A stretch of DNA of 64,000 nucleotides. Origin: Herpetosiphon aurantiacus DSM 785. GTDB taxonomy: Bacteria > Chloroflexota > Chloroflexia > Chloroflexales > Herpetosiphonaceae. A program made the position numbers and the translations under genes. A model generated the notes under the pieces. That model was not told the DNA's origin, did no database searches, and saw only the letters and a list, made by a program, of their open reading frames with translations. Positions 53,644-61,139 of the stretch are shown one piece after another. Position 1 is the first letter of the stretch. Each line of letters begins with the position of its first letter. The stretch spans positions 505,199 to 569,198 of the forward strand of contig CP000875.1 of assembly GCA_000018565.1 (NCBI GenBank). The letters run 5' to 3'.

Positions 53644-53767
53644 AAGCTGAGGCTATGGGCTTTTGGCGCTAGGGATTTATGGTCTATCCCAAACAAACTT
53701 CCGCTTGCCCAGAGCCTTCAGCCTAGAGCCTTATGCTCTGCTTTGTTAATAACGAACCCTTGAACTT

Positions 53768-54262
53768 CTAATGCGTCGCGTATGGTAAATAAACGAAATT
53801 GGCAGGCACGACTTTGAATGTGCGGGTGACACTTTGGCCTTGAAACGAACCACAATCATACTCAACATGCCAATTCCAAGCTTCTAAGGCATCGGCGGGG
53901 AGTGCTTGGGTTTGGGTATAGCTATAGGTAAATGACGATGGTGGTGGGCCAGAACCCATAGTGCCATTGAAAATATAGTTGCGATCGCCTGGGCCATTGA
54001 GGTAGATTTTGTGACCACAACGTGGGCCTTGCCAATTAAACGTCCATGAATTTGGGGCAATAGGTTGTGCCAAAACGGCATTATCGGCTGGTGATTGTAA
54101 AACTGATTCTGGCGGCGGAGTTGCAGTTGGCCCACCGCTGGCTTGCACAAGCTTGGTTGATGTTGCTGAATTAGCATTACCAGGATCAACCACAATACCG
54201 ACGACGAACAGTCCGATCAGCCCTATCAAAAGCATAGAACCTAAGCGTTTGATCCAATCCAT
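53768..54262 (-). CDS. Signal-anchored hypothetical secreted protein
   Basis: N-terminal TM LLIGLIGLFVVGIVV. No recognisable domain. Confidence 0.5.
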   Translation of the reverse strand: MDWIKRLGSMLLIGLIGLFVVGIVVDPGNANSATSTKLVQASGGPTATPPPESVLQSPADNAVLAQPIAPNSWTFNWQGPRCGHKIYLNGPGDRNYIFNGTMGSGPPPSSFTYSYTQTQALPADALEAWNWHVEYDCGSFQGQSVTRTFKVVPANFVYLPYATH

Positions 54263-54573
54263 ACCATCCTCCTAAACCATAGCCTCAGCTGTATCAATAA
54301 CAGCTAATATGCTATAGATTGATGGTAGTTTTTTCGGGTGCAATACACAATAGCCGATCATGGCTAGATTTACGCAGGATATGAGGATTATCAAGCTGAA
54401 ATTTAAATCTGACCTCTGATTCACTAGAACCTGACCCCTCGTACCTCTGTGTCTTTGGCTTAAAATCCAAATCTTCGCCCCCAACCCTTGAATGATCTTC
54501 AAATAGTGAAAAAAAAAGTGTTGTGTGTATCTAAATCTAGTGAAGCATATTCATCCTAGATTTGGAGGCTTTT

Positions 54574-55398
54574 ATGCCGGTTGTTGGAACTGCTCCCGTA
54601 AAGCCGTGCCCTCAATGTCAATTTCGTAATAAGTCTAGCGCAACATGTTGCCAAAAGTGTGGGCAAAATTTGGCTGCTGCACAAGCGCCTCAATCATATC
54701 AGCCAATCGCTCGCCCTACGGTTATCCCATCCGTTAATACAAGCATGGCAACTCCAACAACCAAGCCAATTGCCCCAACATCAATCCAGCTTTCGCCAAA
54801 CTCGGCTAGGAGTATGCTTCAGCCAAATCGCCAGCAATTATTGGCACAGCTGCAAATGTTTGCTTATGGCCTGATTGGCTTAGGAGCAGTCATTCTGGTT
54901 GGGTTAATCTTTGGTCTCTTTGTTAAAGGAGGCCTGAGCGGCGATTTAGGGGGTATTTTAGGTGGTGGGGTTGAGATTGGAGGCAGTGCTATCCATCTTT
55001 TGCTGTTATTACTTGCAACTTTATTTGAGGCGGGATTATCCAATGGAGGGATTATCGCCTTCGTTGTAATTATTATCATCCTGCTATTGCCTGCATATGC
55101 AATTTTTGCTATTACAACTGGCTCAAAAATCGCTAAGGCAATTATATTAAATCAAATGCCCTATTCTATAAAAAATCTTCAAATATTTAGCGGAATAATG
55201 ATCGGATTTTTTGGATTGATCTATGCATTAACTAATATTCAATTTAAGATGAATAGTAATGGGTTAGGAGGCTTTGGCGCGGAGGCTGGAATTGGTTTAG
55301 GATGGGGATTTACATTAAGTCTTTTCATAATGTTAGGAATATTTATTGGCTGTATTTGGTATAAAAATATAGCATTAAAACTTTTAGTTAACCCATAA
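54574..55398 (+). CDS. Zinc-ribbon (CPQC...CQKC) N-terminal domain fused to a Gly-rich 4-TM membrane domain; first gene of the vWA-PP2C-kinase module
   Basis: RBS ggagg. Double CxxC motifs in the first 30 aa. Four hydrophobic helices. Confidence 0.7.
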   Translation: MPVVGTAPVKPCPQCQFRNKSSATCCQKCGQNLAAAQAPQSYQPIARPTVIPSVNTSMATPTTKPIAPTSIQLSPNSARSMLQPNRQQLLAQLQMFAYGLIGLGAVILVGLIFGLFVKGGLSGDLGGILGGGVEIGGSAIHLLLLLLATLFEAGLSNGGIIAFVVIIIILLLPAYAIFAITTGSKIAKAIILNQMPYSIKNLQIFSGIMIGFFGLIYALTNIQFKMNSNGLGGFGAEAGIGLGWGFTLSLFIMLGIFIGCIWYKNIALKLLVNP

Positions 55399-55408
55399 AG
55401 GAGCAATT

Positions 55409-56077
55409 ATGGAATACGGATTAGAAAGCCCAATCAACTACGAACAAAAATGTCTGTGCATTCTAGTTGTTGATACATCAGGATCGATGCAAGGCAGGCC
55501 TATTGATGAATTGAATCAAGGTTTACAAGTATTTCATCAAGATATTAGCAATAGTTTTTCAACTGCCCAACGACTAGAAATCTGCCTTGTTGAATTCAAT
55601 AGTCAAGCTGATTGTATTGTTGAGCCTAGCTTAGTCGATCAATTTCATATGCCGATTTTGGCTGTTGCTGGCACAACCAAGTTGGTTGATGGGGTTAGGC
55701 TAGCGATTCATAAAGTCCAGGAACGCAAAAGCTGGTATCGTTCAACCGGACAACCCTATTATCGGCCTTGGATTATTTTAATGACTGATGGTGAGCCAGA
55801 TAGCGATCAAGATGTGGCTGGCTTGGCGCGTGAGATTCAGCATGGGGTCAACAATAAACAATTTGTCTTTTTTCCAATTGGGGTACAAGGGGCTGATATG
55901 CGTATGTTGCAACAGATTAGCACCCCTGATCGTCCTCCGATGCTGTTGCAAGGTTTACGCTTTGAAGCATTTTTTGACTGGTTAAGTGCAAGCCTATCAA
56001 TGGTTGCCAGTTCAACTGATGGTCAAGTTATTCAGTTACCATCAACAAGCGGTTGGGGAATTCTTCCCGTATCCTAA
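55409..56077 (+). CDS. von Willebrand factor A domain protein (TerY-like)
   Basis: MIDAS motif DTSGSM, plus downstream T (TKLVDG) and D (MTDGEPD) motifs. 10 nt after the previous gene. Confidence 0.85.
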   Translation: MEYGLESPINYEQKCLCILVVDTSGSMQGRPIDELNQGLQVFHQDISNSFSTAQRLEICLVEFNSQADCIVEPSLVDQFHMPILAVAGTTKLVDGVRLAIHKVQERKSWYRSTGQPYYRPWIILMTDGEPDSDQDVAGLAREIQHGVNNKQFVFFPIGVQGADMRMLQQISTPDRPPMLLQGLRFEAFFDWLSASLSMVASSTDGQVIQLPSTSGWGILPVS

Positions 56078-56133
56078 AATTGGTTGAGGTTAGTCGGCCA
56101 AAACTGACTAACCTCTTTTTTAAGGATGATCTG

Positions 56134-57549
56134 ATGAAACAGAATCAACGACCGCTTATTTTTGGGTTATTTACGCTGCTCCTGCTGAGTAGTATGCTGA
56201 TTGGCTTGCTCTTGATTCGGTTATCTACAACGAAGCAGCAAGCAACTGTGCCGAACCAGCAAGCAGCTACAACGAAACAGCAAGCAACCGCAACAAAGCA
56301 GCAACCAATTGCCAATTCACGTTCAATGACCATCACTCAATCAATCCTGCTTGCTACGCTTGAAGCGATCCCAGCCCCGATACCGACAATCGCGCCAATC
56401 TCTAATTCTGACCTAGCTAAGCTCGACCTTGCCAAACCAACACCTGTTCTTCGAGCCGCAAATAATACTAAGAATGACCTAATCACAGGCTTTTTATGGT
56501 TGAGTGTGCTCATACTTGGCGGATATTTTTTATGGTCACGGTGGTTGGGTTCGCTTCAACTCTTGCCACAAGATCATCCTCGGCCTACGCAGTCTAGGCC
56601 GAAATCATTGGCCACGCCGCCAATTAATCCTGTCCAGCCAAAGCCCAGCCCAGCTATTGTTCCTATGCCTGCCAGCAGCCCTAGACCAACAGCTGAGCCT
56701 AGGAGACGTAATGCTAACTATCAATTACATATATTTCAAGATTCGGTCATCGGGCTGAGCCATACTCAACACGGCTTGCCATGTCAAGATAGCTCAGCTC
56801 ATAGAGCGCTGGATAATGGCTGGGGAGTTGCAGTAGTGGCTGATGGGTTGGGCAGTCGTAAATTATCAGATCGTGGCTCGCAATTTGTGGTTAAACACAC
56901 CTGTGAAAAACTATTTGATCTATTGCACCACTATGCTTGGCATAAAACCAACCAATTACCCACAGAGCAGCAATGGCAGGGCTATGTGAAGGCTGCTTTT
57001 TATGATGTTTATAAGGAATTACTCCAGGAAGCTAAAGTAAACGATCAATCGATTCATGAGTATGCCTGCACATTAATCAGTGTTATTTATAGCCCAATTG
57101 GCATTTTGGTGGCTCATGTAGGTGATGGTCGGGCTGGTTATAGCGATCGGTATGGTCAATGGCATTCGATGATTACGCCCCATAAGGGTGAAGAAGCCAA
57201 TGAGGTGATGCCGTTTACTGCCGATCAAGTCTGGAAAAATCCTCAAGAGCTGATCGAATGTCGGGTGATTCAAGAACCTATTTGTGGGTTTGTCTTGATG
57301 TCTGATGGATGCGAGAAACATACCTTCCAGTGTAGTCAATTTGATCAAGCGAATGAGCGTTGGCACGACCCAAATCAACCACATCAACAATTTTTTGATC
57401 GGTTACAACAACTATTTCGTGAACAAAAACAAAAAGGTTGTAAAGCTGAAGAATTAAAAAAGATGTTTAAAGATATTCTATTGCGAGGGACTACAGGTTT
57501 TGCAAATGAGTCAGATGATAAAACCATGATTCTTGGTTTGTGGATCTAG
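56134..57549 (+). CDS. Membrane-anchored PP2C-family Ser/Thr phosphatase with a Gln/Thr-rich repeat linker
   Basis: N-terminal TM. QQAT.TKQQAT repeats. PP2C motifs VVADGLGS, VAHVGDGRAGY, VLMSDGCE. Confidence 0.8.
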   Translation: MKQNQRPLIFGLFTLLLLSSMLIGLLLIRLSTTKQQATVPNQQAATTKQQATATKQQPIANSRSMTITQSILLATLEAIPAPIPTIAPISNSDLAKLDLAKPTPVLRAANNTKNDLITGFLWLSVLILGGYFLWSRWLGSLQLLPQDHPRPTQSRPKSLATPPINPVQPKPSPAIVPMPASSPRPTAEPRRRNANYQLHIFQDSVIGLSHTQHGLPCQDSSAHRALDNGWGVAVVADGLGSRKLSDRGSQFVVKHTCEKLFDLLHHYAWHKTNQLPTEQQWQGYVKAAFYDVYKELLQEAKVNDQSIHEYACTLISVIYSPIGILVAHVGDGRAGYSDRYGQWHSMITPHKGEEANEVMPFTADQVWKNPQELIECRVIQEPICGFVLMSDGCEKHTFQCSQFDQANERWHDPNQPHQQFFDRLQQLFREQKQKGCKAEELKKMFKDILLRGTTGFANESDDKTMILGLWI

Positions 57550-57568
57550 GCATGATATAAGGATTTTA

Positions 57569-58771
57569 ATGATGACTTTTAGCTATCGAACCAAACAGCA
57601 TATCCATGTTCAACTTGATCAGCTGAATCCGCTTGGTAAGGGTGGCGAAGGTAGTGTCTATTCTGTTATCAATACGCCGAACTACCCTAATCACTGTGCA
57701 AAAATTTTTCATCCTAACCGATTAACTGCTGATTTAGAGCGAAAAATTAACTTTATGGTCGATAATCAACCTTCAACTCTCATAAGTACAAATTATCGGA
57801 TTGCTTGGCCGATTGCTTCGTTATATCACAATAAAAAATTCTATGGTTTTATTATGCCAAAAGCATTTGATAAAAGTATTGGCCTTGAGCGTGTAACTCA
57901 ACCTCAGATTAGCCTCAAAGGTATTGATACTCAATGGATTAAATATCAGCGCAATGATAAACAAGGGATGATTAATTGTTTTAAAGTTTGTGTAAATATT
58001 GCCTTCATTGTTAACCTTATTCATCAAATGAAAAAATATACCTTTGTTGATCTAAAACCTCAAAATATTTTAGTTAACCTCAATGGTTTTGTATCGATTA
58101 CCGATATTGATTCGATGCAAGTGTATGATCCTCAGAAAAATCTGTATTATAAATCTGTAGTTTCTACTGCTGAATACTCGCCACCTGAATATCAAAGCTA
58201 CTTGAAAAAAGGAGGAAATATCACACAAGAATGGGATAATTTTTCGATGGCAGTAATTTTTTATCAATTAATGACCGGGGTTCACCCGTTTGCCGCAACA
58301 TTTGGTGGTAAATTTAGTAATTCAACAACAATTGATGATCATATTAGCCAAAGCTTATTTGTATTTGGAGATAATCGGCAGACAATAACGAAATTGCCAC
58401 CATTACATACATATTATCAGCAAATTCCATTGAATATTCAACAATTATTTTTACGAGCATTTGATAAACCAGTCAGCCAGCGCCCAACTGCCGAAGAGTG
58501 GGGGCAGAATCTATTTGAGTTAGTTTCTAAGGATTCGCATTTGATCGCATCGAACACAGCAGTTGCGGCGCTGGCATTACCAGTAAAATCAGCCTTGAAG
58601 CCGGCTGCTCAATCAACAACTGGCCATGTTCAGATGTTCCAATTAACGAAGGCTTCCACTCATAGTCAGGGGTCTCAATCAACGAAAGCTCCACATAAGA
58701 GTTATGCTTGGGTTGGTTGGCTGATTGTGCTCGTTTGTATTATTGTGGTGATTGCTGTTGCCAACGCCTAA
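57569..58771 (+). CDS. Atypical eukaryotic-like Ser/Thr protein kinase with a C-terminal TM anchor
   Basis: G-loop LGKGGEGSVY. Lysine region CAKIF. Catalytic loop FVDLKPQNILVN. ITDIDS in the DFG position. YSPPEY in the APE position. C-terminal helix WVGWLIVLVCIIVVIAV. Confidence 0.8.
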   Translation: MMTFSYRTKQHIHVQLDQLNPLGKGGEGSVYSVINTPNYPNHCAKIFHPNRLTADLERKINFMVDNQPSTLISTNYRIAWPIASLYHNKKFYGFIMPKAFDKSIGLERVTQPQISLKGIDTQWIKYQRNDKQGMINCFKVCVNIAFIVNLIHQMKKYTFVDLKPQNILVNLNGFVSITDIDSMQVYDPQKNLYYKSVVSTAEYSPPEYQSYLKKGGNITQEWDNFSMAVIFYQLMTGVHPFAATFGGKFSNSTTIDDHISQSLFVFGDNRQTITKLPPLHTYYQQIPLNIQQLFLRAFDKPVSQRPTAEEWGQNLFELVSKDSHLIASNTAVAALALPVKSALKPAAQSTTGHVQMFQLTKASTHSQGSQSTKAPHKSYAWVGWLIVLVCIIVVIAVANA

Positions 58772-59673
58772 AGGCCAATAATGCCGCGCCGACGCAAAAA
58801 GGGCAAGATACTTTGTTCAAGTGGGCGATCGGTGCGGATGCCAGCATAGGTTGCGCCATAGCGTTGACATACTTGTTCGTGCATGCGTACCCAACGAACT
58901 AATTTTTCGCGATAGGCTTTGTGCGTTTGTTGATCAAGCTCAAGCGCCAGTACTTGGCCAGTTTCGCTATCCTCGAATTCGACTGGGCCAGTCAGGGTCG
59001 GCTTAATTTCTTCGGGGTGCAGTAGATGCAAGACGACAACTTGCCAAACTGGTGGAGCGGCAGCCCGCAGCAATGGCTCTAAATCGCTTGTCCATAAATC
59101 TGAAATAATTAAAAGCATGCCGCCAGCACTGCGCCGAACTGCTTGAATAACTGGGGTGAATGAGGTTTGTTCAGCCCAGTTCAAATTGCTTAAATAACGC
59201 AGCATATCAGGGCCACGCGCCCGACTGACCATCGGCCCAAATGGCTTGATTAATTTGCTGGTGAAGGGCCAAATTGTGGTTTGATCGTTTGAGGTTAGGC
59301 CGAGGTAGCCCAGCATTGCCGCTAATCGCAAGGCATAACGGCCTTTGTGCAACTCACCATGGCCCCAATCCAACGAGGCTGAGCAATCCAAGGCGATGGT
59401 TACATTAATATCTTGCTCGGTTTCGCCCAGTTTGAGATGCAAATCTTCGTGACGGGCATAGGCAAACCAATCAACGTGGCGCAGATCATCGCCTGGGCTA
59501 TAGGCGCGATGGTCGCTAAATGTTGGTGCGGGCAAGCGGCGGCGTGAGGCATGTTCGCCACTCAAACCACCACGCAAGTTACGGCGCGAACGCAAGGCCA
59601 AGCGCTCGATCCGCGCTAAAAATTCTGGGTTGAATAGATCGCCGCTAGCGCCCGAAGTAGTCTTGAATCGCAT
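58768..59673 (-). CDS. DUF58 domain protein (vWA-like; the usual MoxR partner)
   Basis: GDDLRHVDWFAYAR...INVTIALDCSASL is the DUF58 signature. Start set at MRFKTTSG to remove the overlap with the upstream gene. Confidence 0.8.
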   Translation of the reverse strand: MRFKTTSGASGDLFNPEFLARIERLALRSRRNLRGGLSGEHASRRRLPAPTFSDHRAYSPGDDLRHVDWFAYARHEDLHLKLGETEQDINVTIALDCSASLDWGHGELHKGRYALRLAAMLGYLGLTSNDQTTIWPFTSKLIKPFGPMVSRARGPDMLRYLSNLNWAEQTSFTPVIQAVRRSAGGMLLIISDLWTSDLEPLLRAAAPPVWQVVVLHLLHPEEIKPTLTGPVEFEDSETGQVLALELDQQTHKAYREKLVRWVRMHEQVCQRYGATYAGIRTDRPLEQSILPFLRRRGIIGL

Positions 59674-60979
59674 CGCGTAGCTCCGCTGGAATATTGGCTG
59701 GATCGTTAATATTGTCAGGAACGCTGCCACCACTGCTCTCAGGATTTCCGCCGCCAGTACCTTCACCACCTGGCAGAGTGATTGAGATATCGCCGCCAGT
59801 GCCAGCGGTGGTTTCGCCAGTTGGTGGGGCTTCAGGCAAATCGAGATCAGGGCCAAGTGGATCAGCGGGGGGCGATGAACGACTGCCAGTAGCTGAATTA
59901 TTGCCAGCACCATTATTATTGGGCTGGCCAGTTTCAGGTTGTCCAGTCTGGCCTTGTTGCTGGTCGCTGCCTGCCTGAGGATCGTTGCTGGTTTGGCCTT
60001 GTTGCTGGTCTCCATTGCCAAAATCGGCTTGAGCATTATCAAGTTGATCAGTTAGTTGGGCCAAATCTTCGAGTGCATCGGCAGCATTTTGAGGATTCCC
60101 ACGCAATTGGTCGGCATTGTTGCGCAAACGCTCGGCCACTTCAGGCTGATCTTGCAACTGCTCGGCAGCTTGCTCAAGCCCATCGGCTATTTCGTTGCGG
60201 GTTTGGGGCGATAACTGATCGGCTTGATCGGCTAGCTTGGCCAGCTCCTCGCTGGCTTGTTGCACATCGCCACGGCGTAGCGCATCGGCGGCAGCGCGGG
60301 TTGCGCCATTATCGCTCAAGCCATCGGCTAAAGCATCGGCTATTTCTTGGCCTTCGGGGCCAAGCTCGGGCTGTTGATCAGGTTGGCTGCCAACTGGCTG
60401 ATTGGGATCGGCAGCTGGATCTTGCTCGGCGGCAGGCTGCTGGGGTGGCTCGGTGGTCGCCAAACTTGCCAATTCGCTCAATGGCTCGGTGGTGGCAGCG
60501 GGCAAACCGGCGTTGATTTGACCAAGCACAAACAGTCCAGTTGCCAACAGCGCGGCTAAGCCTAAACTTTGCCATTCAAGCGCAATTGGGGCAAGCACAC
60601 GGCTGGTTGCATCGCGGGCGACACTGGGCAAACGTCGATTCGCCCGTTCAAGATTGACAGCATGAAAACCATCACGCTGATTTTGAAACTCGCTGGCAGT
60701 GCTCAGTTGGGCATTTAATTGATATTGTTGATCAAGTAATTGTGCTAAGTGAGCAGGTGAGAGAATCGACTTCCAAGCATAAACCACGCCCAACGCTGCA
60801 ACGAGAATCACGATTAAACTTAGAATTGGCCATGAAAGCGGCCAAGCTAGCCAGTTTCGGCCAATTAAGCCAAGGCACAGCACGCCAAGCGTCATCCATG
60901 CGGCGCGAATCAGCAGGCGCTGGCGGTGATAGCGCTGGAGTTCTGTATGTAATTCAGTCAGTTGTTGATTAATATTCAT
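59645..60979 (-). CDS. Membrane protein with 3-4 N-terminal TM helices and a long acidic Gln/Asp/Ala/Gly-rich low-complexity C-terminal region, co-transcribed with the DUF58 gene
   Basis: 29-bp overlap with the DUF58 start. Composition. Confidence 0.6.
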   Translation of the reverse strand: MNINQQLTELHTELQRYHRQRLLIRAAWMTLGVLCLGLIGRNWLAWPLSWPILSLIVILVAALGVVYAWKSILSPAHLAQLLDQQYQLNAQLSTASEFQNQRDGFHAVNLERANRRLPSVARDATSRVLAPIALEWQSLGLAALLATGLFVLGQINAGLPAATTEPLSELASLATTEPPQQPAAEQDPAADPNQPVGSQPDQQPELGPEGQEIADALADGLSDNGATRAAADALRRGDVQQASEELAKLADQADQLSPQTRNEIADGLEQAAEQLQDQPEVAERLRNNADQLRGNPQNAADALEDLAQLTDQLDNAQADFGNGDQQQGQTSNDPQAGSDQQQGQTGQPETGQPNNNGAGNNSATGSRSSPPADPLGPDLDLPEAPPTGETTAGTGGDISITLPGGEGTGGGNPESSGGSVPDNINDPANIPAELRDAIQDYFGR

Positions 60980-61139
60980 TGTGTGCTCCTAGCCTTGGCA
61001 CGCTGGTGAATAGCTGCATGCGCTGAAGCGTGGGAAGTGCAACCAATCAATTGCTTTTAGGAGTGTACCATAGAATGACAATGGATCGGCCTCTGCTATA
61101 ATTGACAGTTGGAACTGATACACCACCGCAGGAGGATTT

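What the first reader, a model, noticed from the sequence alone, without database searches (positions are those of the whole stretch)
58768..60979. Orphan DUF58 (vWA-fold) gene plus acidic membrane protein without a MoxR ATPase, convergent on the vWA-PP2C-kinase module
DUF58 proteins normally sit directly downstream of a MoxR AAA+ ATPase (Bat/MoxR operons). Here the two-gene unit lies directly after tkt's divergent promoter region, with no AAA+ gene in the window. Its 3' end overlaps the kinase stop by 4 bp, so the two modules converge on one another. Two vWA-fold systems back to back could be functionally linked. The acidic protein has a roughly 300-aa low-complexity tail rich in D/E/Q/A/G.
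Basis: partly seen in the sequence, partly recalled or inferred. Interest (0 to 1): 0.5.

Follow-up and report, generated by a model that had tools for sequence, protein, structure and literature searches.

The report
Leftover half of a MoxR–vWA operon
These two Herpetosiphon genes, an unnamed acidic membrane protein and a DUF58 protein, are the conserved remainder of a widespread MoxR/Bat-type envelope operon that has lost its ATPase gene from the locus, and the kinase module beside them is an unrelated, come-and-go gene island.

Summary
On the minus strand, a 444-aa membrane protein (60979-59645) overlaps a 301-aa DUF58 gene (59673-58768; Pfam E=1e-29) by 29 nt. No MoxR gene lies in the window or within 8.7 kb beyond tkt.

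The pair is not a free-standing oddity. In Rokubacteria and other phyla, homologues of both genes sit in MoxR – membrane protein – DUF58 – BatA/VWA – VWA/GATase1-like operons. Across the class Chloroflexia (Roseiflexus, Oscillochloris, Herpetosiphonaceae) the same operon lacks MoxR. In the genus Herpetosiphon only the first two genes remain at this locus, and the BatA/VWA gene sits alone elsewhere in the genome. Both genes are under strong purifying selection (dN/dS 0.03 and 0.09).

The membrane protein matches no Pfam or NCBIfam model, including DUF4175 and DUF4129. It belongs to an unnamed family defined by a TM hairpin, a conserved loop motif and a C-terminal "IPxxYRxxVxxYF" motif.

The convergent VWA–PP2C–kinase module is a low-GC TerY-P-type island. 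It is present in three of five Herpetosiphon genomes and absent from two, with identical borders, so the proposed functional link is not supported.

Whether a MoxR acts in trans could not be tested.

The parts
59645..60979 (-). Gene for the 444-aa 'acid-family' membrane protein. It is the first gene of the unit, with ATG at 60979 and AGGAG 6 nt upstream.
   Evidence: Searches give the ORF and ribosome-binding site. One search found only 22 homologues by single-sequence search, all Chloroflexia-type. Searches show homology to the membrane protein of MoxR operons in other phyla (hhalign probability 99.3%, E=2.4e-20). Pfam and NCBIfam give no family.
60752..60919 (-). TM1-TM2 hairpin (about residues 21-76), preceded by an Arg-rich N-terminus (residues 1-25, predicted cytoplasmic).
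   Evidence: Hydropathy segments 21-40 and 42-76. R21 and R25 are invariant. Helices are predicted in the model. The topology is inferred from the positive-inside rule.
60566..60751 (-). Predicted cytoplasmic loop (residues 77-138) carrying the family signature LDxxYxLxxQLxTAxE (D83, L88, T94, A95 and E97 invariant).
   Evidence: The same motif appears as 'ADRxFGLxDRVATALE' in the Rokubacteria-type members. This loop is the part of the profile that carries the cross-phylum match with low compositional bias.
60503..60565 (-). TM3 (about residues 139-159). It places the C-terminal 284 aa outside the cytoplasm.
   Evidence: Hydropathy analysis. The orientation is an inference.
60020..60364 (-). 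Conserved acidic helical domain (residues 206-320, net charge -17), flanked by a Pro/Gln-rich linker (161-205) and a Gly/Gln/Thr-rich disordered linker (321-420).
   Evidence: pLDDT about 90-95 with six helices. Many columns are invariant. dN/dS is 0.02-0.05. Sequence confirmed. No solved structural relative was found.
59648..59719 (-). C-terminal signature DPxxIPxELRDxIQDYF (residues 421-444). Its last codons overlap the DUF58 start.
   Evidence: D426, P431, R435, D436, Y441 and F442 are invariant. The motif [YLFH][RHK]xx[IVL]xxYF near the C-terminus occurs in 51 of 1390 ORFs longer than 250 aa across all loci. Every one sits at the operon position next to DUF58 or MoxR. dS is depressed here because of dual coding.
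58768..59673 (-). DUF58 gene (301 aa, no TM segment, predicted cytoplasmic). It is translationally coupled to the upstream gene by a 29-nt overlap (59645-59673).
   Evidence: PF01882 E=1e-29. Start-codon context. No hydrophobic segment. dN/dS is 0.026-0.033 against four Herpetosiphon genomes.
59374..59388 (-). MIDAS-type DxSxS motif (D96-C-S98-A-S100) of the DUF58 domain.
   Evidence: Translation reads DCSAS. D96, S98, S100 and D192 are invariant in 38 DUF58 proteins from many phyla.
60980..61139 (.). 160-bp divergent intergenic region shared with tkt. It presumably holds the promoter of the two-gene unit.
   Evidence: A strong sigma-70-like site was found only for the tkt direction (+ strand, 61075-61102), and none for the minus strand. 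No Rfam match.
54370..58771 (+). NOT part of the unit. This is the neighbouring 4.4-kb TerY-P-type island: a Zn-ribbon membrane protein, VWA, PP2C_2 and a Ser/Thr kinase. Its kinase stop abuts the DUF58 stop.
   Evidence: Pfam domains. Indel borders at window 58771/58772 and 54369/54370. GC 41%. No remnants in genomes that lack the island. The architecture matches the TerY-P triad as described in PMC11090510.

Best explanation
The two genes are the conserved first half of a Bat-like MoxR-DUF58-vWA envelope operon, not a stand-alone or kinase-linked system.

Shown:
- The ancestral arrangement, still seen in Rokubacteria/Methylomirabilota, other Chloroflexota, Entotheonella, delta-proteobacteria and others, is MoxR + acid-family membrane protein + DUF58 + BatA(N-terminal TM)/VWA + VWA/GATase1-like.
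- In the class Chloroflexia the MoxR gene is absent from the operon.
- In the genus Herpetosiphon the BatA/VWA gene has also moved to another chromosomal site.
- That leaves the membrane protein and DUF58, which remain translationally coupled and under strong purifying selection.

Inferred mechanism:
- The membrane protein is a transmembrane coupler. Its Arg-rich N-terminus and conserved loop (LDxxYxLxxQLxTAxE) face the cytoplasm and dock the soluble DUF58 vWA-like protein, possibly with an invariant Asp or Glu completing the DUF58 MIDAS site.
- Its long acidic ectodomain, with a conserved helical bundle and a C-terminal IPxxLRDxIQDYF motif, lies outside the membrane. There it could engage the outward-facing MIDAS-bearing VWA domains of the BatA-type partners, or bind divalent cations.
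- The complex would serve cell-envelope maintenance or stress tolerance, like other Bat/MoxR-vWA systems whose precise biochemistry is still unknown.
- Any ATPase input would have to come from a MoxR encoded elsewhere. This was not tested.

The convergent VWA-PP2C-kinase module is an independently acquired TerY-P-type cassette that happens to have landed at the 3' end of DUF58.
For: - Identity of the genes: DUF58 by Pfam. The membrane protein is homologous to operon partners in other phyla (HMM E 1e-10 to 1e-17 with low bias in the N-terminal part; hhalign 99.3%; shared C-terminal motif found only at that operon position).
- Gene order in 80 species-representative loci plus metagenome loci: 18 MoxR-acid-DUF58, 3 acid-MoxR-DUF58 (plus 5 more by motif), and 17 acid-DUF58 without MoxR, 16 of them Chloroflexia. 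BatA/VWA_2 and VWA/GATase1-like follow downstream. MoxR, BatA, VWA and GATase1-like were verified by Pfam.
- Herpetosiphon: the locus holds acid-DUF58 only. A BatA/VWA_2 orthologue sits alone in a conserved different context in H. llansteffanensis CP188824 and in a second lineage.
- Both genes are functional: dN/dS 0.03 (DUF58) and 0.09 (membrane protein). The MIDAS DxSxS is invariant. The 29-nt overlap is conserved.
- Independence from the kinase module: presence or absence with identical borders, foreign GC, faster divergence (72% against 86% for flanks), and loss in H. geysericola although its two closest relatives carry it.
- A BatA-type VWA domain faces the periplasm in Borrelia BB0173 (PMC5700661). 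This is compatible with an outside contact for the acidic ectodomain.
Against: - No experiment or co-folding supports the proposed contacts between the loop and DUF58 or between the ectodomain and BatA VWA.
- The topology rests only on hydropathy and the positive-inside rule.
- The vWA fold of this DUF58 could not be confirmed structurally. The single-sequence model has pLDDT 39, and no solved homologue was found by sequence.
- Presence of a trans-acting MoxR in Herpetosiphon was not established. The MoxR search returned no Herpetosiphon protein in its top 120, which is uninformative.
- The function of Bat-type operons is itself unresolved. A full bat deletion in Leptospira biflexa had no phenotype (PMC3557215).
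- The fate of the VWA/GATase1-like gene in Herpetosiphon is unknown.
Confidence: 0.6

Rival explanations
1. MoxR-independent system. In Chloroflexia the membrane protein-DUF58(-BatA-VWA) machinery works without any AAA+ ATPase. The DUF58 acts as a passive MIDAS adaptor or scaffold and not as a MoxR cofactor.
For: - No MoxR lies within about 10 kb on either side in at least 12 Chloroflexia loci with full flanks, including the complete genomes of Roseiflexus castenholzii and Oscillochloris.
- The genes are nonetheless tightly conserved.
- 16 further DUF58 loci from other phyla have neither MoxR nor the membrane protein nearby.
Against: - Absence in cis says nothing about trans. One relative (L068) has MoxR about 5.6 kb downstream of the DUF58 gene, so relocation does happen.
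- MoxR genes are common in bacterial genomes (general knowledge, not tested here).
- DUF58 residues conserved in MoxR-linked homologues are all retained.
Confidence: 0.25
2. The DUF58 pair and the convergent VWA-PP2C-kinase module form one functional unit, for example phosphorylation control of a vWA scaffold, as in the bifidobacterial PFNA cluster where a kinase sits with MoxR, DUF58 and a transglutaminase.
For: - The genes are physically adjacent, with stops 4 bp apart and no terminator between them.
- The adjacency is kept in three Herpetosiphon genomes.
- Kinase-MoxR-DUF58 clusters exist in Bifidobacterium (PMC8430577, from its abstract listed).
Against: - The module is missing from L013 and H. 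geysericola L014 with clean, identical borders, and the pair there is intact and equally constrained.
- Its composition is foreign.
- No relative outside Herpetosiphon has this module at that position in the loci whose flanking genes were listed; flanks of the other loci were screened only for MoxR, BatA and VWA/GATase1-like.
- TerY-P triads are described as self-contained, mobile signalling or defence cassettes (PMC11090510).
Confidence: 0.07
3. A decaying relic. After losing MoxR and BatA from the locus, the two genes are non-functional leftovers on their way to pseudogenisation.
For: The operon has been progressively reduced along the lineage leading to Herpetosiphon.
Against: - dN/dS is 0.03 and 0.09 at dS of about 0.9-1.2.
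- Both reading frames are intact in all five Herpetosiphon genomes and in many metagenome contigs.
- The overlap and ribosome-binding sites are conserved.
Confidence: 0.03

Closest known systems
Bat (Bacteroides aerotolerance)-type / MoxR-DUF58-vWA operons (B. fragilis BatI, Leptospira bat, Borrelia bb0170-bb0176)
   Same: - A DUF58 protein with a MIDAS-type motif.
- In relatives, the same downstream partners: a BatA_N + VWA_2 membrane protein, further VWA proteins and a MoxR AAA_3 ATPase.
- The operon logic is described in PMC5700661.
   Different: - No MoxR and no BatA/VWA gene at this locus.
- The partner gene is an unnamed acidic three-TM protein that I did not find described as a Bat component in the papers read.
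- The last operon gene in relatives is a VWA/GATase1-like protein, not TPR/SH3 BatC-E proteins.
Rokubacteria/Methylomirabilota-type operon: MoxR - membrane protein - DUF58 - fused BatA/VWA/GATase1-like (about 1460 aa)
   Same: - Homologous membrane protein (hhalign 99.3%) and DUF58 (34-38% identity).
- The two genes are in the same order and immediately adjacent.
   Different: - MoxR lies directly upstream and the large vWA fusion directly downstream.
- The ectodomain of the membrane protein is different in sequence and less acidic.
DUF4175 / TIGR02302 (alpha-proteobacterial membrane proteins with Gln/Gly-rich tails) and DUF4129. The family descriptions here are recalled from memory.
   Same: Similar overall design: a few N-terminal TM helices followed by a long low-complexity tail predicted to lie outside. 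Genomic association with MoxR/DUF58 genes is also from memory.
   Different: No sequence match. Pfam at E<=10 on 22 family members and on 6 cross-phylum members, and NCBIfam at E<=0.01, returned neither family.
TerY-P triad (TerY-like VWA + PP2C + Ser/Thr kinase + Zn ribbon), for the neighbouring module only
   Same: The neighbour has exactly these domains and behaves as a mobile cassette, as described for TerY-P (PMC11090510).
   Different: - The Zn ribbon is on a separate membrane protein and is not fused to the kinase.
- The kinase and PP2C carry TM segments.
- The DUF58 pair is not part of the cassette.

Membership tests
DUF58 (Pfam PF01882) | Match to the family HMM above the gathering score | tested here: met
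   103.7 bits against a cut-off of 23.4, E=1e-29, covering profile positions 1-209 of 216.
DUF58 (Pfam PF01882) | MIDAS-type DxSxS motif and downstream conserved Asp | tested here: met
   The motif reads DCSAS at residues 96-100. D96, S98, S100 and D192 are invariant in 38 homologues.
DUF58 (Pfam PF01882) | vWA (Rossmann-like alpha/beta) fold | tested here: inconclusive
   The single-sequence AlphaFold model has pLDDT 39 and is unusable. No solved homologue was found by sequence. There is only indirect support: bona fide VWA domains of operon partners cross-hit the DUF58 model.
MoxR-DUF58-vWA (Bat-like) operon | MoxR (AAA_3) ATPase gene adjacent to DUF58 | tested here: not met
   No MoxR in the 64-kb window or in 8.7 kb beyond tkt. 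None in the loci of four other Herpetosiphon genomes.
MoxR-DUF58-vWA (Bat-like) operon | BatA_N/VWA membrane protein gene in the same operon | tested here: not met
   Absent from the window. An orthologue exists as a solo gene elsewhere in Herpetosiphon genomes.
MoxR-DUF58-vWA (Bat-like) operon | Common descent of the DUF58 and its partner gene with those of complete operons | tested here: met
   The best DUF58 relatives outside Chloroflexia lie in complete operons. The membrane protein is homologous across phyla.
MoxR-DUF58-vWA (Bat-like) operon | A MoxR encoded anywhere in the genome (trans partner) | not testable with these tools
The MoxR protein search listed only its 120 best hits, none from Herpetosiphon, which is uninformative.
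DUF4175 / DUF4129 (for the acidic protein) | Match to the family HMM | tested here: not met
   Neither family appears in the listed output (best 25 per list) of the Pfam scans of 22 members at E<=10 and of 6 cross-phylum members at E<=0.01. NCBIfam gave nothing.
TerY-P triad (joint membership with the neighbouring module) | Conserved co-occurrence of the pair with the VWA/PP2C/kinase genes | tested here: not met
   The module is absent from L013 and L014 while the pair is intact. It is also absent next to the pair in the non-Herpetosiphon relatives whose flanking genes were listed.
Known anti-phage defence systems (PADLOC) | Match of either protein to a defence-system model | tested here: not met
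   No hit for DUF58 or the membrane protein. Only generic kinase-domain hits for the neighbouring kinase.

The most novel reading that the evidence does not exclude
The acid-family protein would be a so-far undescribed core subunit of a widespread MoxR-DUF58-BatA-VWA envelope machine. Its signature is an R-rich N-terminus, a TM hairpin, a DRxLxLxxRLxTAxE loop, a third TM, a variable acidic ectodomain and a C-terminal IPxxYRxxVxxYF motif. It would be the transmembrane link between the cytoplasmic ATPase/DUF58 pair and the vWA proteins facing outward. On this reading, a whole bacterial class (Chloroflexia) runs the module with no dedicated MoxR. That would mean DUF58 proteins have an ATPase-independent role.
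Probability: 0.25. Interest if true: 0.55.

Novelty: new variant of a known kind. Interest (0 to 1): 0.33.

Why it matters
MoxR-DUF58-vWA (Bat-type) operons are among the most widespread bacterial gene clusters that still lack a known biochemical function. This locus shows two things.

- A conserved membrane protein with no Pfam or NCBIfam model belongs to many of these operons. By HMM or motif it is present in 47 of the 80 closest DUF58 loci.
- One bacterial class keeps the membrane protein-DUF58 pair under strong selection after the ATPase gene left the operon.

This gives a natural dissection of the system. It offers a minimal two-gene core for interaction and topology studies, and a clear genomic test of whether DUF58 needs MoxR. 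For genome annotation, it warns against reading function into adjacency with a mobile TerY-P cassette.

Tried and rejected
- Pfam (E<=10), NCBIfam and PADLOC on the acidic protein and its family gave no family.
- Foldseek of the acidic protein's model against the PDB gave only generic helical bundles, best E=0.38. A profile search of PDB sequences gave nothing meaningful. The AFDB library was unavailable.
A planned co-fold of the cytoplasmic loop with DUF58, using a paired alignment of 42 genomes (built), was dropped for the same reason.
- Looking for MoxR elsewhere in Herpetosiphon. A protein search with a Chloroflexota MoxR returned 8000 hits and listed 120, none from Herpetosiphon. Literature searches found nothing usable. 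The question stays open.
- Rfam, promoter/terminator and repeat scans of the region gave nothing relevant.
- The idea that the island was deleted leaving remnants was rejected. No significant protein remnants (best tblastn E = 0.07) occur in the genomes without it.
- The idea that the pair is decaying was rejected on dN/dS.


Full report
**1. What is in the sequence**

The minus strand carries two overlapping genes.
- The upstream gene (60979→59645) encodes 444 aa and has an AGGAG ribosome-binding site.
- The downstream gene is a DUF58 gene. Its credible start is the ATG at 59673, with GGAG 8 nt upstream, and it ends at 58768, giving 301 aa.
- The two genes overlap by 29 nt. Public gene calls on 20 contigs give the same two products.

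The DUF58 assignment is secure: PF01882, E=1e-29, 103.7 bits against a cut-off of 23.4. The DUF58 stop and the stop of the convergent kinase share a 4-bp footprint. tkt starts 160 bp upstream, in the divergent direction.

A Pfam-verified MoxR (L047, AAA_3 E=2.4e-61) finds nothing in the window, either by phmmer on all ORFs or by six-frame tblastn at E<=10. The source contig, 100% identical to the window, continues 8.7 kb past tkt without a MoxR gene.

**2. The organism**

The closest named homologues are from Herpetosiphon, including H. llansteffanensis, H. geysericola and Herpetosiphon sp. NSE202.

**3. The acidic protein**

The protein has five parts.
- An Arg-rich N-terminus.
- Two TM helices.
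- A 60-aa loop with the invariant pattern LDxxYxLxxQLxTAxE.
- A third TM helix.
- A 284-aa tail with net charge -39.

The tail is only partly low-complexity.
- Residues 206-320 form a conserved helical domain (pLDDT 90-95, dN/dS 0.02-0.05).
- This domain is flanked by a Pro/Gln-rich linker and a Gly/Gln-rich linker.
- The last 20 residues carry an invariant DPxxIPxELRDxIQDYF motif.

By the positive-inside rule, the N-terminus and loop are cytoplasmic and the tail lies outside. This is an inference.

No Pfam, NCBIfam or PADLOC model matches the protein, including DUF4175 and DUF4129. Neither the PDB fold search nor the PDB sequence search gives a relative.

**4. What the pair belongs to**

Distant homologues of the acidic protein in other Chloroflexia are always followed by DUF58. 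After that come a BatA_N/VWA_2 membrane protein and an 840-920-aa VWA/GATase1-like protein. No MoxR lies within 10 kb. This holds in the complete genome of Roseiflexus castenholzii.

I scanned species-representative genomes with a DUF58 alignment, which gave 80 loci. I mapped these loci with local profiles.
- 18 loci, mostly Rokubacteria/Methylomirabilota, read MoxR – membrane protein – DUF58 – fused BatA/VWA/GATase1-like.
- 3 loci read membrane protein – MoxR – DUF58.
- 18 loci read MoxR – DUF58.
- 17 loci read membrane protein – DUF58 without MoxR; 16 of these are Chloroflexia.
- 16 loci have DUF58 with neither gene nearby.

The membrane proteins of the different phyla are truly homologous.
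- The HMM match lies in the TM-hairpin/loop region and has low compositional bias.
- hhalign gives 99.3% probability, E=2.4e-20.
- The C-terminal motif [YLFH][RHK]xx[IVL]xxYF occurs in 51 of 1390 long ORFs. Every occurrence is at that operon position. Six of these proteins were missed by the HMM.

The acidic protein is therefore a conserved component of this MoxR operon family that no Pfam or NCBIfam model covers.

**5. The state in Herpetosiphon**

Only the first two genes remain at this locus in all five genomes examined. A BatA/VWA_2 orthologue, 50-52% identical to the operon-encoded one of other Herpetosiphonaceae, sits alone in a different and conserved context in two lineages. No MoxR or DUF58 lies beside it.

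The two genes are not decaying. At dS of about 0.9-1.2, dN/dS is 0.026-0.033 for DUF58 and 0.083-0.095 for the membrane protein. The MIDAS DxSxS is intact and invariant across 38 homologues.

**6. The convergent module**

Window 54370-58771 encodes a Zn-ribbon membrane protein, a VWA protein, a PP2C_2 protein and a Ser/Thr kinase. This is the TerY-P triad architecture, which is described as a self-contained and often mobile signalling or defence cassette (PMC11090510).
- Its GC is 41% and its GC3 is 30-39%. The pair has 54% and 47-51%.
- It is replaced by 220-460 bp of repeat-rich spacer in L013 and in H. geysericola L014, with the same borders.
- H. geysericola lacks it although its two closest relatives carry it. 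Flanks in that clade are 92-94% identical.
- It diverges faster than the flanks, at 70-72% against 85-86%.
- The genomes without the island hold no significant remnants (best tblastn E = 0.07).

The pair is equally constrained with or without the island. The adjacency is therefore incidental.

**7. How the pair most likely works**

Shown:
- The pair is the membrane-protein/DUF58 core of a Bat-like MoxR-vWA operon.
- It is retained under selection after MoxR and BatA left the locus.

Inferred:
- The membrane protein couples the two sides of the membrane.
- Its conserved cytoplasmic loop docks the soluble DUF58, perhaps with an invariant acidic residue at the MIDAS site.
- Its acidic ectodomain meets the outward-facing VWA domains of BatA-type proteins. 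The VWA domain of Borrelia BB0173 faces the periplasm (PMC5700661).
- ATPase input, if any, comes from a MoxR encoded in trans.

Unknown:
- The cellular role of Bat-type systems is unresolved. A full bat deletion in Leptospira had no phenotype (PMC3557215).

**8. What could not be settled**

I could not determine whether any MoxR exists elsewhere in Herpetosiphon or other Chloroflexia genomes. I could not confirm the vWA fold structurally, and I could not test the proposed contacts.

**9. Verdict**

The finding is real, but it is largely explained as a reduced variant of a known operon type. The proposed link to the kinase module is not supported.

Two points go beyond the ordinary. One is the unnamed, cross-phylum membrane partner. 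The other is the class-wide absence of MoxR from the operon.

Interest is modest at 0.33. Novelty class: new variant of a known kind.

Noticed in passing
window 54370-58771: A four-gene TerY-P-type cassette (Zn-ribbon membrane protein, VWA, membrane-anchored PP2C_2, and a Ser/Thr kinase with a C-terminal TM). It has GC 41% and is variably present among Herpetosiphon genomes with identical borders. The Zn ribbon is a separate protein and is not fused to the kinase.
   Followed up: partly
L013 12212-12674; L014 10906-11127: In genomes without the island, the spacer after DUF58 is filled with short dispersed or tandem repeats. Examples are three copies of about 50 nt, 'GTGGCTAAAATCAGCCTTCGCGTGTTTCGTAGATTGATAGTTAACGCAGAGC', in L013, and 'AGTCAGAAGTCAAAAGTCAGAAGTCAAAA' and 'TTCGTGCTCTTCGTGG' runs in L014. 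These may be REP/MITE-like elements that mark a recombination hotspot.
   Followed up: no
window 53645-53658 and 54277-54290: A perfect 14-nt inverted repeat brackets the 164-aa ORF of unknown function (53768-54262, minus strand), which lies next to the island border.
   Followed up: no
L095 6275-7690; L008 4701-6134: In Roseiflexus castenholzii and one metagenomic Chloroflexia locus, a Peptidase_MA_2 gene sits directly upstream of the membrane-protein gene, in the position MoxR occupies in other phyla.
   Followed up: no
L030 10876-15258 and equivalents in about 20 loci: In Rokubacteria/Methylomirabilota, the BatA_N/VWA_2 and VWA/GATase1-like proteins are fused into a single protein of about 1460 aa with three VWA matches. 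This argues that the two Chloroflexia proteins act as one unit.
   Followed up: partly
L094 10001-14162; L096 3238-4980 and 14689-14980: The relocated solo BatA/VWA_2 gene of Herpetosiphon lies in a conserved context (Pyr_redox, PatA_N-like, BatA, methyltransferase). An FHA/Zn-ribbon Ser/Thr kinase is nearby. In L096 a type III CRISPR Cmr cluster is inserted between them.
   Followed up: no
window 59648-59719: Synonymous divergence collapses in the last 24 codons of the membrane-protein gene (dS 0.07-0.40 against about 1.0-1.3 elsewhere). This is consistent with dual-coding constraint from the overlapping DUF58 start and its ribosome-binding site.
   Followed up: yes
L009 13066-15200: Near the Chloroflexia operon in L009, a convergent FHA protein and a VWA/Zn-ribbon protein are encoded. 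This is another vWA signalling pair close to a DUF58 operon, and its significance is unknown.
   Followed up: no
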